A stretch of 64,000 bases of DNA from Eledone cirrhosa (taxonomy: Eukaryota), in the NCBI GenBank assembly GCA_964016885.1, contig OZ024759.1, positions 30,070,001-30,134,000 of the forward strand, in the 5' to 3' direction. A program made the position numbers and the translations under genes. Under the pieces are notes generated by a model. That model had not been told where the DNA came from and ran no database searches. It saw only the letters and a program-made list of their open reading frames with translations. Shown here piece by piece: positions 3,621-48,350 of this stretch (position 1 is its first letter; each line of letters opens with the position of its first letter).

Positions 3621-3955
3621 ATATTAAAATATAAGTATTAATAAAATTGATGTTCTTTTGATCAATTACATTTTATTATACATATTTCGGATGTACAACA
3701 GTACGTCCTCATCAGACAAAATATAATGATACATGGTCATGTATCATTATATTTTGTCTGATGAGGACGTACTGTTGTACATCCGAAATATGTATAATAA
3801 AATGTAATTGATCAAAAGAACATCTATTTTATTAATACTTATATTTTAATATTAATAACTCCTGAAAATTATTTTTAACCGTTGAGTGCTTCCAATCTAC
3901 TGTAAAACTCATTCTTTGACATAATCATCGAATATTGTTTAACAACTTAAAACAT
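3621..3955 (+). mobile_element. Tail-to-tail palindromic PLE pLTR-like element (115-bp arms plus about 100-bp tail) between (AT)n tracts
   Basis: 3621-3735 is the reverse complement of 3738-3852 with one mismatch. Each arm carries an HHR. Confidence 0.8.
3751..3803 (+). ncRNA. Type I hammerhead ribozyme (mirror copy on minus strand at 3670-3722)
   Basis: ATTTTGT-CTGATGA-GGAcGTAC tgtt GTACaTCC-GAAA-TATGTA-TA|ATAAAAT. Confidence 0.88.
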
Positions 3956-4531
3956 ATATATATATATATATATATATATATATATATATATGTATATATG
4001 AAAACAGGGAGAAAGAGACGATTATGAGGAAGAAAAATATATTTATACATAATATATATATATACATAAAATATATTTATACATAAAATATATATATATT
4101 TGGATCAAATGACTAGGGCCACAATTAAACAACGGATCCGAGAGAAGCGAAATGAGGTGGTTGGTTTAAGTTAACAAACGATGCAGTAACACACACACAC
4201 ACAGTAGCATTCCACCATACGAACATACTACACTGCCAATACAGAGAAACAAGGCAACAACACACGCACACACACACACACAAGCGAGACAACAACACAC
4301 GCACACACACACAGTAACATTCAACAAACAGGCAGGGAATGGACTGACAGCTAGCGCCACACCACTCCCACAATTGAAAGAACTACTTCGGCCGCTGACC
4401 TCTGCCTGACCGACCCCATTTCACGCGCACGCGCGTTCTGCTGAATACCTCAGATATTCAAAACAACGAAACAGCGGAGGACACGTTTCGCACCTTTCCG
4501 ACAGACAACCTTTCCCCCACCCCGGAAAAAA

Positions 4532-4567
4532 CCCCAGTTGATGGATGTGAATCCGAAATATATAGGG
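4532..4567 (+). pseudogene. Decayed hammerhead motif
   Basis: CCC-CAGTTGA(core mutated)-T-GGAT gtga ATCC-GAAA-TATA-TA-GGG. Confidence 0.5.
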
Positions 4568-4979
4568 ACAATTAAATATCTCCCAAGGTAACTCTCTCTC
4601 GTGTTGTTATTTTTATTTTTATCCTTTACGCTCTTTCCTTCATTCCTCTACACGTCTTATACACGCCACGCATCTCAACGTACACCCACTTACGTCTCTC
4701 TCTCCACCACCAGATCTTGTTACCCGGAGATTTACCCATTTGCATTGTCGAGGCTTCCAAACGACTTAAAGAAATTTACCTTATTATTCCACAATGCTTC
4801 AAGCAAACTTCAATACTCTCTTATATATATATATATATATATATATATATATATATATATATATATATATATATATATATATATATTTATAGATAGATAT
4901 AGATATAATTGAGTAAAAAATATATATATATATATATATATCGACTGGAATGATAGTTTAGGAGCAACAGTAAAAAGGG

Positions 4980-5327
4980 TTGTTGATTATAGTGATGCTG
5001 GTGATGGTGGTGCAGGTGGTGGCAGTGGAGTTGGTGGCGTTGATGGTGGTGGCAATGGCCCTGTTGCTGCTGCTGCTTTTGGTGATATTAATTTTTCGGT
5101 GGTGTTGGTGGCGATGGTGGTGTTTTGTGGCGATGGTACTGGTGTTGGTGTTGTTGGTAATGATGGTGGTGATGTCGGTGATGGTGTCGACGGTGGCGTT
5201 GGTGGTGCTGGTGCGGCTGATCGTAGTGGTTTTGCTGATGGTGGCGGTGATGGTGCTGGCTTTTATCAGTGGTGGCGGTGCTTCTGCTACTGGTCGTTGT
5301 GGTTTTGGTGGCGGCGATGGTGGTGGT
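4980..5327. repeat. Degenerate (GGT/GTT)n trinucleotide repeat
   Basis: ggtggtgatggtg runs. Confidence 0.8.
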
Positions 5328-5768
5328 TAAACCAGGAAACCCATAAATGGCTCAGTTGCTAGGATAGTGCTAAAAATAGCGACTACCATTATCTGTAGGA
5401 CTCAATGTACTTTAAGAACTGCCCCCTTTATTTATTTATTTATTCATTTGGGATTCTGGTTACTGTAGAATTATAAGATATAAAGGAAAGATCCCTTATA
5501 TATACAACACTTACACACATATATTCTGCTATATAGCTATCTATATACAAAGAGAGTTATATTTATACTCTCTCTCTCTACACACACACACAAATACATA
5601 AATATATATATATATCATTACATATGTATATAGATATATATACACATTTACACACACACTTACATAAATATATATATATATGTAAACCTATTAGTATACA
5701 TATATATATACGTATATAGGATGAGAAGGAATTCAGAATAAACTAATATTTTACTCAATATATTTCAA

Positions 5769-44659: not shown

Positions 44660-45413
44660 AATATTGATATCTATGTAGTAAAATTAGCAGTGGTAGTCGC
44701 AGTAATAACATCAGTAGGAGAATTTGTAGAAGCAGAAACAGCAGCAATAGCAGTAACAGCAACAGCGGATTACCAGCAGCAGTACTAGCGGTATTGGTAT
44801 GTGAGCCTAAACTTGACACAAAGTATCGTAATGGAAAAGAATATTGTACTCTCAGTCGCCCGACGTCATATAAGGCCTTCATAAATTCAAGCCTGATAAA
44901 CACCTTGGAGAACGTAAAGGTTAATAAGTCCAACACAGGTATACAGTTGGCTTTCAGGAGGGCTTTGGAATGAATGCATTCCAACCTGAATGTCTATAAA
45001 CTGGGCACTTTATGACTTTTCTAACACCGTCAAATTTCATTTTATCTACACACCAGGTTTCTAAAACCTTCACTGAGAGGAAACACGAGAGGAAAATATA
45101 ACGAAAAAAAATCAAAAATGAAAGTTTTAATAAGCTATATCGGGGGAAACCATGTAGTGCAAAAACTAATTACGTAGTCATGACTAATACTGAAAAAGGC
45201 ACCTATATATATATTTTTTTAATTGATAATATATTTTGTATGAACATATATTGTGTTCTGCATTATAAACGTGCATGTATATAATAAAATTTAGGGTCAT
45301 CTTTCAACTTTATTATTATTTTTCTTATATAACCTGATTTGTAGAGTTCTTTAATATTCGCAGCATTTTAATTTCGCACTATATATATATATATATATAT
45401 ATATATATATATA

Positions 45414-46441
45414 TACGATATTAAACAAATGGAAACTATATTTATAAAACCATATTTATTTCATTATACATATTTCAGGGATACCATATTAAAAATATGG
45501 CATGCCTTCTTCAGATAAAATACAATATATAAGCAGTTTTATAAATAAATTTGACGTACCATAAAATATTGATCAACTTCCATTTAAAAAGTTGGTTTGG
45601 TAGTGAAAATGTTTGTAAATATTTAGTGTTAAGCACAGTTAGAAAGAAAGACGGAGAGAAGGAATAAATGTATGTATGGTCATTATTTTTCACACATTAT
45701 ATATCTATGTCTCATTCATGAATATTGATATTTACATTATAATACCCAATTCATATGAATTGATAATTCAAATTGATAGGACATAACGTAACGTTGTAAA
45801 TCTGTCATCCTTCTCTCTAGATATAGCTCTTTCTTCTCCTCCCTCTATACATGATGTAATTTAAGTATCGCTGTTTTCTCTTTAGTTATTTTTTATTTCT
45901 CTCCGTCTCCTTAACACTATAACTAAATAAATAAATAAATAAATAATTACAGTACTCCCTCCCTCCTAAATCTCTCAATTTGTATGATGAATTATTATTA
46001 TTATTCATCTGTTGCCTCAGCTGCCTCTCATTTTTCACCTCCTCACTATTTCTCTCTCCCATATCTCTCTCTATCTCTCTCTGTTTTTCTTTACATACAT
46101 TTATTCCTTCTCTCCGTCTTTCTTTCTAACTGTGCTTAACACTAAATATTTACAAACATTTTCACTACCAAACCAACTTTTTAAATGGAAGTTGATCAAT
46201 ATTTTATGGTACGTCAAATTTATTTATAAAACTGCTTATATATTGTATTTTATCTGAAGAAGGCATGCCATATTTTTAATATGGTATCCCTGAAATATGT
46301 ATAATGAAATAAATATGGTTTTATAAATATAGTTTCCATTTGTTTAATATCGTATATCTACTCCAAAACTTGTTGAGTGCTTTATATCAGTTATAAAATA
46401 TTTACTCGTTGTAACCCAACAATTTTAAATAAAACTTTTGC
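45414..46441. mobile_element. Family H1 element: inverted pLTR (45414-45676), spacer, direct pLTR with tail (46092-46441); HHRs at 45458-45522 (-) and 46247-46310 (+)
   Basis: About 262-bp apparently identical inverted repeat (the ORF track gives the same peptide on both strands). CTGAAGA-AGG c ATGCCA..TGGTAT c CCT-GAAA-TATGTA-TA. Confidence 0.85.
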
Positions 46442-47354
46442 ATATATATATATATATATATATATATATATATATATATATATATATATATATATATATA
46501 TATATATATATATATTTATATCACGATAAATTAACGGAGCCATAGACTCTGGCCATTCCCTGCCATTAATGTGCTCAAAGGAGAAGGAATCCCGAGCCCC
46601 TTATAATACAATATGTAGAGAAGATAACACACCAGAGAGAGAGATGGTGCCAAAAATAGAAACAATTATATTTGTAATAAATCACTTCCTAAAATTCCTA
46701 TAAATTTGTCATTCGTTTCAAAGTAAGTGAATTTGCAATTTTTGCCGATTTCATAGAATGAATCTTATCTCCAGTTAAAAAATGTGTTCGATGAGTCATA
46801 TATATATATATACACACACATAGACTTCTTAGGAGTACTCACGTAATACCCAGGCTCTTTTACGTTAATTTCCTGCGTAGGCCGTTCTATTGATCGACTC
46901 GATGCCAGGACACTTGCTTTCGTTGGTGATGGTAGAACACCAACCCCCCTCCACAAACACACGCACACTCACAAACCCTCACAAATTCAAACACATTCAC
47001 ATATTAAGAATGTTGTAGATTGTGGATTCAAGTTATAGATTGAAATATTTCATGATAGAAAAAAAAGTTAATATGGCTATTAGTTTGACTATTAATGTTT
47101 TATGTTTATATTCCAGCTGCAGCCATTTATGGATTTGATATATGTTAAACAGCTGAGGAGGCAAAGAATATTTATATAGTTAGGGACAGATGGTTGTACT
47201 GAACTGAATAAACGAATTACATATACGAGTTGTACATGGACACACACAAACACACACACACATACACATGTATGTATATATAAACAAGCGTGTAAGTCAA
47301 TAGGTTAAAATTAACGTAGTTTATTCATAAAATTAACGTAGTTTATTCATATTC

Positions 47355-47413
47355 GCTGTTATATATATTTCGGTGATAACTATTATGCAACAGCTATGAC
47401 CTCATCAGACAGC
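47355..47413 (-). ncRNA. Type I hammerhead with long stem II
   Basis: Minus: GCTGT-CTGATGA-GGT c ATAGCTGTT gcat AATAGTTAT c ACC-GAAA-TATATA-TA|ACAGC. Confidence 0.88.
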
Positions 47414-48009
47414 TAGAATTTGAACAGAAAAACATAATGATGGAATAAAGCTTACTTCTGTTATTTCGATTTTTTATATGCTCAGTGCTGAAGTGTTTAC
47501 CTGTGCCATTTTAACCTAAATTCATACACACATATGTACCCTTTAGAAAAATGAAAGTAAAAATAACATATACGTGGTATTTACTTACCTCAGTTTGTAT
47601 TGATGTTTAAGGTTGAAAGGAATTAGGCTGGAGATAGCTTGTCATATACATATATATATATATGTGTGTGTGGTGTGTGTGTGTGTGTGTGTGTGTGTGT
47701 GTGTGTGTGTGTGTGTGTGTGTGTGTGTGTGTGTGAGTGCGTGCGTGCGTGCGTGTGTGTGTGTGTGTGTGTGTGTGTGTGTGTGTGTGTGCGCGCGCGC
47801 GCGTGCGCGCGTGTGCGTGTGTGGTTATATTTAGGGAGGGTCATATTGTTATAATATTGCCAGCAATAATAATAGAACACACTCACTGATTTGTTGCGAT
47901 TGGCTTTCGCTTCTGTATCTTTTATATCTCCATAGTCAATTTATCTGGCAGTCAATGTTTATCATTGATTGACCAACGGTTAAAAATACAGATATAAATA
48001 TATATATAT

Positions 48010-48350
48010 ACGATATATTAACAAATGGAAATTATATTTATAAAACCATATTTATTTCATTATACATATTTCAAGGACACCAAGTTAAATTATGGTGTGC
48101 TTTCATCAGATAATATATAATATAGATCAGTTTTATAAATAAATATTGACATACCCTTAAAGAATGCGACCATTTCTGTTAATTTAACTTGGTGTCCTTG
48201 AAATATGTATAATGAAATAAATATGGTTTTATAAATATAATTTCCATTTGTTAATATATCGTATTTTTATTCCAATAATTTGTTGAGTGCTTTATATCAG
48301 TTATAAAAATATTTGCTTGTTGTATCCCAACAATTTAAATAGAACTTCTA
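48010..48350. mobile_element. Family H1 element: inverted pLTR with HHR (48054-48116, -) joined to a truncated direct copy with tail
   Basis: 48012-48180 is the reverse complement of 31300-31470. 48181-48350 restarts inside the stem II loop in the forward orientation. Confidence 0.8.

What the first reader, a model, noticed from the sequence alone, without database searches (positions are those of the whole stretch)
3621..48350. Recurrent 'inverted pLTR + direct pLTR + tail' palindromes
Five insertions share a related grammar: a near-perfect inverted duplicate of the ribozyme-bearing end, typically with only one arm carrying an extra tail of about 80-100 bp next to (AT)n. They are at 3621-3955 (2-nt loop), 27900-28105 (no loop), 38766-39700 (three copies), 45414-46441 (415-bp spacer) and 48010-48350. 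This matches the inverted-pLTR structure known for Penelope, but here without any ORF. Arm identity of 0-1 mismatches in the simplest cases implies both arms form in one integration event. Transcripts from either strand would carry a ribozyme and fold into long dsRNA.
Basis: partly seen in the sequence, partly recalled or inferred. Interest (0 to 1): 0.7.

Follow-up and report, generated by a model that had tools for sequence, protein, structure and literature searches.

The report
Head-to-head Penelope retroelement insertion stubs
These five mirror-image inserts are real and are shortened copies of abundant Penelope-type jumping elements that sit in TA repeats as two head-to-head ends, a layout already described; their ends suggest that the two halves were likely copied separately from the element's RNA.

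Summary
All five palindromes are present. Four are 5'-truncated ends of three ORF-bearing Hydra-clade Penelope-like element (PLE) families, whose long or full-length copies lie elsewhere in the genome. The fifth comes from a 427-bp tandem retrozyme. So 'no ORF' only means truncation. The layout is in print (PMC8557442, PMC3846280), as are ORF-less opposite-strand hammerhead pairs (PMC4209133), and the scan noted it repeatedly on other DNA. Corrections: the 27.9-kb element has no complete hammerhead, the 48-kb element has only one, the 415-bp 'spacer' is parent 3' UTR, and arm identity alone proves little. In a read-through transcript the hairpin is predicted to bury the ribozyme. Added here: the tail-less arm is often the longer one (9 of 19 and 6 of 21 pairs), so neither arm copies the other. 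Both ends lie just 5' of twin conserved hairpins in the ORF leader. Most likely two separately primed cDNAs are joined end to end. This is ordinary in kind.

The parts
3621..3735 (-). E1 tail-less arm (inverted 3' pLTR end), outer end on (TA)n; holds hammerhead 3665-3727
   Evidence: same outer end in 20 of 20 relatives whose end lies in the locus
3736..3852 (+). E1 tailed arm (pLTR end); hammerhead 3746-3808 with palindromic stem III
   Evidence: family links to an RT/GIY-YIG ORF in L033, L034, L036
3853..3953 (+). E1 tail, about 100 nt, then (TA)n
27900..27977 (-). E2 tail, 78 nt; in full-length copies it is the ORF leader between two hairpins
27978..28041 (-). E2 tailed arm; 3' half of a hammerhead only (truncated in loop II)
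28042..28105 (+). E2 tail-less arm
38766..39097 (-). E3 tailed arm of a 427-bp retrozyme unit (56-nt tail 38766-38821; hammerhead about 39034-39074)
39089..39702 (+). E3 tail-less arm, 1.44 tandem retrozyme units; hammerhead 39450-39490; short overlap with the left arm at the joint
45408..45676 (-). E4 tail-less arm, 269 nt; hammerhead 45457-45522
45677..46091 (+). E4 'spacer' = 3' UTR of the parent PLE; 5' part of the tailed arm
   Evidence: continuous 96% match to full-length copy L127
46092..46360 (+). E4 tailed arm, paired part; hammerhead 46246-46311
   Evidence: 40 of 40 scored copies identical over 203 nt
46361..46442 (+). E4 tail, 82 nt; in L127 it continues into a second hairpin and the ATG
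48003..48155 (-). E5 tail-less arm, another subfamily of the E4 family; complete hammerhead 48057-48113
48156..48179 (.). E5 joint; not matched to L127, probably subfamily pLTR sequence (similar letters in loose read ends)
   Evidence: (table 7); inferred
48180..48347 (+). E5 tailed arm, truncated in stem II (no core), plus about 82-nt tail

Best explanation
The five palindromes are 5'-truncated insertions, four from Hydra-clade Penelope-like elements and one from a 427-bp retrozyme that is likely moved by a Penelope enzyme, and each likely formed when two cDNAs were primed separately at the two cut strands of a (TA)n target and then joined head to head. Shown: family membership, ORF-bearing parents, two fixed outer ends (pLTR end and tail end), variable centres, and twin hairpins just 3' of each end in the ORF leader of the E2 and E4 parents. 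Inferred: the GIY-YIG nuclease cuts both strands of (TA)n. The RT, probably a dimer, binds one hairpin per subunit and starts a few bases 5' of it, one cDNA at the tail end and one at the pLTR end. Each cDNA stops at a variable point, often at an RNA hairpin. The two free ends are then joined by microhomology or a few added bases. The stubs keep only the first hairpin, so they are likely dead ends. Their ribozymes would be locked in the long hairpin if read through.
For: Parents: L127 is a 3,814-bp unit with pLTR, tail, ORF (two lesions), 3' UTR, pLTR and tail. L363 holds tandem 3,542-bp units with an open 715-aa ORF. E1 ORF pieces lie in L033, L034, L036. Grammar in tail-only samples of 30 loci each: an adjacent inverted arm in 19 of 30 (E4), 21 of 30 (E1) and 27 of 30 (E2); its outer end is at the pLTR end in 16 of 17, 20 of 20 and 27 of 27 closed cases. 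Long E2 arms taken without regard to the tail carry it in 20 of 40. The tail-less arm is longer by more than 30 nt in 9 of 19 (E4) and 6 of 21 (E1) pairs, the tailed arm in 4 of 19 and 3 of 21. In the first group each arm holds sequence the other lacks, so neither can be a self-copy of the other; window E5 is such a case. Joints show overlap in 13 of 22, 10 of 19 and 11 of 27 pairs, and extra bases in 9, 6 and 10. Both arms share the subfamily base at one diagnostic position in 19 of 19 printed E2 pairs (read by eye). Twin hairpins with an A-U to G-C swap lie after both ends in the E2 and E4 parents. In vitro, a PLE protein cuts and extends both strands, starts at two internal sites that bound the tail, and is predicted to be a dimer (PMC11167929). 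Opposite-strand joints of this family occur in raw reads of two other samples.
Against: About half of the pairs have arms of similar length (6 of 19 E4, 12 of 21 E1, 27 of 27 E2) and centre near natural hairpins, which fold-back self-priming explains equally well (PMC3846280). Shared haplotypes could also come from gene conversion between arms. The second hairpin was not seen for E1 (no copy running into the ORF was fetched), and I did not see the hairpin motif by eye in the E3 tail, so E3's mobiliser is unidentified. No read or contig spanned the window's own E4 joint. The enzyme steps are taken from a Poseidon-clade protein, not a Hydra one. Samples are top hits or first-by-position, not random.
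Confidence: 0.78

Rival explanations
1. One cDNA, primed at the tail end, snaps back on a natural hairpin and copies itself to make the inverted arm (self-priming).
For: Proposed in PMC3846280. Centres pile up near hairpins in all three families: E1 at about -130 to -166, E4 at about -170 to -207, E2 at about -45 to -68. Arms are near-identical.
Against: Cannot give pairs in which the tail-less arm is longer (9 of 19 E4, 6 of 21 E1). In the short E2 palindromes the tailed arm does not pass the hairpin tip (at most 66 nt), and no printed centre keeps the natural loop. It does not explain why the copy stops exactly at the pLTR end.
Confidence: 0.15
2. The stubs are a self-propagating, non-autonomous MITE- or SINE-like class with its own short master copies.
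For: Most E2 copies are short: 24,020 plus 72 exact tail matches against 1,458 plus 2,348 arms reaching about -80. One haplotype first looked short-only (12 of 24 vs 0 of 65).
Against: That contrast was an ascertainment artefact: 2,348 long arms carry the same haplotype, including tandem full-length ORF copies. The G/A variant is not linked to length (30 of 30 vs 27 of 30 short, P 0.24). Centres differ from copy to copy.
Confidence: 0.05
3. The palindromes are assembly or library fold-back artefacts.
For: No read or contig spanned the one window joint that was tested. Such structures are known to trouble assemblies (PMC8557442).
Against: Outer ends are fixed to the base across dozens of loci and families. 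Arms carry independent substitutions. Joints show microhomology or added bases. The same opposite-strand joints occur in raw reads of two other samples.
Confidence: 0.02

Closest known systems
Insertion layout of endonuclease-bearing PLEs: partial tandem, adjacent inverted 5'-truncated copy, one-sided tail (Craig et al. 2021, PMC8557442 Fig. 2 legend; Arkhipova et al. 2013, PMC3846280; passages read)
   Same: Head-to-head arms, tail on one side only, strong 5' truncation, microhomology joints.
   Different: Tails here are 56-101 nt against 30-40 nt in print; these five copies are truncated so far that no ORF remains.
Hydra clade of C-terminal EN+ PLEs, e.g. Hydra-1_Obim, Penelope-13_HM (PMC8557442 section read in full; supplement parts)
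   Same: RW(K/R), DKT, CxCx5C linker, C-terminal GIY-YIG, CxxC and CxH around E and N, hammerhead in pLTR, (TA)n target. Penelope-13_HM is listed with an inverted 5'-truncated copy.
   Different: Units are 3.5-3.8 kb with long 3' UTRs (published ones are generally under 3 kb). Hammerhead sequences differ from Hydra-1_Obim, so these are other families. Compared by eye; no tree with named members.
Minimal hammerheads of PLE pLTRs, including pairs 100-700 bp apart on opposite strands and the U3-A8 core (Cervera and de la Pena 2014, PMC4209133; passages)
   Same: ORF-less opposite-strand hammerhead pairs assigned to truncated PLEs; palindromic stem III; U3-A8 variant as in part of the E2 family (14 of 40 long arms).
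   Different: In the passages read, that paper does not map arm ends or tails. Another 14 of 40 E2 long arms have a C3-A8 mismatch.
Animal non-LTR retrozymes (PMC7229834, passages; bioRxiv 10.64898/2026.07.22.740005, part 1 of 5)
   Same: E3 is a tandem type I hammerhead repeat, 427-bp unit, arrays of about 20 units in 8.5 kb.
   Different: Its arrays end at two fixed points in (TA)n with inverted arms, i.e. PLE-type ends. No RNA or circle was tested.
PAc (Anolis Poseidon) in vitro mechanism (Frangieh et al. 2024, PMC11167929; parts 1-2 of 4 read)
   Same: Two internal start sites that bound the tail, AT-rich target, both strands cut and extended, hammerhead cleavage not needed.
   Different: Different clade. 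In the parts read, the paper does not derive the inverted arm from the second start site or describe twin hairpins.

Membership tests
Endonuclease-bearing Penelope-like elements | Single ORF with RT and C-terminal GIY-YIG nuclease in the parent | tested here: met
   Open 715-aa ORF in L363; L127 ORF with two lesions; motifs read by eye. Pfam and PDB searches gave no direct hit; homologue P0002 has a weak RVT_1 match, E 0.004, below cut-off.
Endonuclease-bearing Penelope-like elements | pLTRs from partial tandems, inverted 5'-truncated copy, one-sided tail | tested here: met
   L127, L363, L364; tail-only samples.
Endonuclease-bearing Penelope-like elements | Type I hammerhead in the pLTR | tested here: met
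   Motif in E1, E4, E5 and in long E2 copies. No hammerhead family among the 150 Rfam rows shown of 237.
Endonuclease-bearing Penelope-like elements | Target-site duplication | tested here: inconclusive
   Both flanks are (TA)n. One empty/filled paralogue pair shows insertion into a (TA)9 run, with a longer run on the tail side.
Endonuclease-bearing Penelope-like elements | Self-cleavage and retrotransposition activity | not testable with these tools
   Needs bench assays.
Hydra clade | RWK-type motif, DKT, CxCx5C linker, no CCHH, CxxC and CxH around E and N | tested here: met
   RWR, DKT, CxCx5C, CxxC...CxH in the E2 and E4 parents; CxCx5C and the C-terminal motifs in E1 pieces; compared by eye.
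Hydra clade | Insertion into (TA)n | tested here: met
   TA flank at the inverted arm in 15 of 17, 19 of 20 and 26 of 27 closed cases.
Hydra clade | Phylogenetic placement with named Hydra families | not tested
   Named proteins were seen only as paper text; no tree was built.
Non-LTR retrozyme (E3) | Non-coding tandem repeat of 150-450 bp with a type I hammerhead per unit | tested here: met
   427-bp units in arrays; hammerhead motif; no family ORF seen in L129-L132.
Non-LTR retrozyme (E3) | Expressed as linear and circular RNA | not testable with these tools
   No RNA run was at hand.
Self-propagating MITE/SINE-like class | Fixed internal structure and haplotypes confined to short copies | tested here: not met
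   Variable centres; the haplotype is shared with 2,348 long arms.

The most novel reading that the evidence does not exclude
A Hydra-clade PLE dimer binds twin hairpins in the 5' leader of its own ORF and starts both cDNAs on one RNA. Because the second hairpin exists only upstream of an ORF, most events run back only to the RNA's 5' end or first strong hairpin. The tens of thousands of 200-bp stubs would then be 'strong-stop' products that map the transcript start, and long copies would need tandem RNA or an LTR-like strand transfer through the pLTR.
Probability: 0.3. Interest if true: 0.62.

Novelty: new member of a known kind. Interest (0 to 1): 0.3.

Why it matters
The layout itself is known, so the five loci add little. 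Their families, however, are young and abundant: at least 24,092 exact tail matches for one, and 40 of 40 identical top copies for another. They give a large natural data set on an open question, how PLEs make inverted arms and tails, and an open ORF with defined cis-elements for an assay. They also seed the genome with perfect RNA hairpins, possible substrates for A-to-I editing and small RNAs (untested).

Tried and rejected
Rfam gave only microsatellite-type miRNA noise in the rows shown. Pfam and PDB did not recognise the ORFs. The protein atlas gave no result. 'E2 is a self-propagating short subfamily' was followed through and rejected. Arm identity as proof of one event was rejected (the small within/between difference in E1 and E2 rests on 2 and 5 shared variants, and tailed arms were selected for identity to the query). 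Arm lengths were inflated by a script error and replaced. In one search several E1 'dir5' values near -440 reflect a gap in the reference copy and were not used. Truncation at the hammerhead cleavage site is not enriched: only 3 of 60 E2 copies end near it, and there is no pile-up in E1 or E4. No RNA holder listed. No read test of E1 was obtained. No empty paralogous site for E4 or E5 was found beside the DUF229 duplicates. Literature searches for a published two-cDNA or strong-stop model: 3 papers, one relevant; 0 papers; 7 papers; subscription papers and bioRxiv supplements were not searched, so absence from print is not shown.
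Full report
Setting. The window is G000:C20:30,070,001-30,134,000 of a 3.0-Gb animal assembly in 1,796 contigs, very rich in (TA)n. It is probably an octopus; that rests on my recall of a SINE-like repeat and was not tested by any search.

Observation. All five inverted repeats are present. I call them E1 (3621-3953), E2 (27900-28105), E3 (38766-39702), E4 (45408-46442) and E5 (48003-48347). 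Arm identities are 111/112, 63/64, 231/237 and 262/276, 268/269 and 89/91. Tails are about 100, 78, 56, 82 and 82 nt. Complete type I hammerhead motifs with palindromic stem III lie in both arms of E1 and E4, in two of three E3 copies and in the left arm of E5; E2 has only the 3' half. Rfam showed no hammerhead family in the 150 rows printed of 237.

What they are. Each is one copy of a large family. E1 has 1,331 candidates. Its copies extend through a 3' UTR of about 1.5 kb into an RT and GIY-YIG ORF. E4 has 981 candidates, and all 40 scored are identical over 203 nt. Its full-length copy L127 is a 3,814-bp unit, and the E4 'spacer' is its 3' UTR. E5 is another subfamily of the same family. 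E2 has 24,020 plus 72 exact tail matches; tandem 3,542-bp units with an open 715-aa ORF exist. These proteins carry RWR, DKT, CxCx5C, a C-terminal GIY-YIG and CxxC...CxH, the marks of the Hydra clade (PMC8557442 section 11; alignment rows in its supplement; compared by eye). Thirty homologues were found among 7,994 candidates scored, almost all unnamed. E3 is a 427-bp tandem repeat with arrays of about 20 units in 8.5 kb. It fits the retrozyme definition by structure (PMC7229834). Its arrays end at two points 56 nt apart, in (TA)n, in 31 of 40 tallied ends (some loci overlap, so these are not all independent).

The grammar. With the tail alone as query (30 loci per family), an inverted arm is adjacent in 19, 21 and 27 of 30 for E4, E1 and E2. 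In 6, 2 and 0 loci the tailed arm runs out of the locus, and 5, 7 and 3 have no inverted arm. Where the outer end is visible it lies at the pLTR end in 16 of 17, 20 of 20 and 27 of 27. The E2 set is enriched for a rare variant. A set taken by position gave 20 of 30 inverted arms, all 20 at the pLTR end, with some diverged copies missed by the 80% filter. Centres vary from locus to locus and show overlap or added bases. This argues against an assembly artefact, as do opposite-strand joints of the E4 family in raw reads of two other samples. The window's own E4 joint was not spanned by any listed piece, so locus-level proof is missing.

One event? Identity alone does not show it: E4 arms differ by 0.0066 per nt within and between loci (21 pairs); E1 by 0.0139 against 0.0172 (19 pairs); E2 by 0.034 against 0.040 (28 pairs). 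Better evidence is that the arms join directly with no (TA)n between them, and that both arms carry the same subfamily base in 19 of 19 printed E2 pairs (read by eye). Gene conversion is not excluded.

Mechanism. The tail-less arm is longer than the tailed arm by more than 30 nt in 9 of 19 E4 and 6 of 21 E1 pairs, shorter in 4 and 3, and similar in 6 and 12. In the first group one arm has the tail and the other has extra 5' sequence, so neither is a self-copy of the other; two RNA-templated syntheses are needed. In full-length E2 and E4 copies the tail is the leader between pLTR and ATG. A hairpin with an ACTC/GAGT stem follows the pLTR end, and a second one with GCTC/GAGC follows the tail end, each within about 5 nt. 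A PLE protein in vitro cuts and extends both strands and starts at two internal sites that bound the tail (PMC11167929). The simplest model is therefore two primed cDNAs joined end to end. Symmetric stubs centred near hairpins also fit fold-back (PMC3846280), which I cannot exclude for them.

The E2 stop. Only 2 of 30 position-sampled copies have a tailed arm beyond -70, and 1,458 plus 2,348 arms reach about -80 (other upstream variants may be uncounted). The limit at -65 to -68 coincides with the tip of the extended stem II hairpin. I tested whether short copies spread on their own; an apparent short-only haplotype was an artefact of my pattern. A structural stop or the RNA's 5' end remain as explanations.

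Function of the stubs. A read-through transcript makes the antisense arm first. The predicted probability of stem I falls from 0.88, 0.09 and 0.24 in isolation to 1e-50, 1e-57 and 1e-36 in E1, E4 and E3 (equilibrium model). Long dsRNA is plausible, an active ribozyme in the same RNA is not. Expression, editing and small RNAs were not tested.

Comparison with print. The inverted 5'-truncated copy and one-sided tail are described (PMC8557442, passages; PMC3846280, passages). Opposite-strand hammerhead pairs 100-700 bp apart, assigned to truncated PLEs, are described (PMC4209133, passages). Retrozymes as PLE derivatives are proposed in bioRxiv 10.64898/2026.07.22.740005 (part 1 of 5; its supplements are closed and may bear on E3). 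I found no paper with the two-cDNA or strong-stop model, which miss most subscription journals. The scan has noted the layout and the two-primed-ends idea on this and other genomes; those notes are not independent support.

Verdict. The elements are real and ordinary in kind: new families of a known clade, with useful mechanistic detail. Interest 0.3.

Noticed in passing
window 42728-44656, 55581-57482, 62208-64000 (+), and L365 4522-6952: Tandem cluster of about 90% identical single-exon ORFs; the first is DUF229 (PF02995, E 3e-102). E4 lies 0.75 kb downstream of it, behind an AATAAA at 45283.
   Followed up: partly
window 12493-13497 (-): Open 335-aa C-terminal piece of another Hydra-type PLE ORF, 38-39% identical to the E1 and E4 parents.
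   Followed up: partly
window 31326-31566 (+), 9355-9425 (-), 47355-47413 (-), 51901-51986 (-): Further hammerhead motifs; the first is a solo tailed copy of the E4/E5 family.
   Followed up: partly
window 58632-58681 and L365 1290-1520: Empty and filled paralogous site: a (TA)9 run at the centre of a small palindrome is empty in the window and holds a short tailed E2-family copy in the duplicate, with a much longer TA run on the tail side.
   Followed up: partly
L363, L364 (G000:C1:91,472,500-91,495,000): Head-to-tail array of full-length E2-family units 3,542 bp apart with open ORFs, tail at one end and an inverted tail-less arm at the other.
   Followed up: yes
L313-L352: E2-family hammerhead core is U3-A8 in 14 of 40 and C3-A8 (mismatched) in 14 of 40 long arms; the mismatched form may be inactive.
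   Followed up: partly
L080, L179, L031: Rare palindromes with a tail on both arms, so the one-tail rule has exceptions.
   Followed up: no
L366 1-1200: Another degraded Hydra-type ORF, similar by eye to the E1 parent, about 10 kb beyond the window.
   Followed up: no
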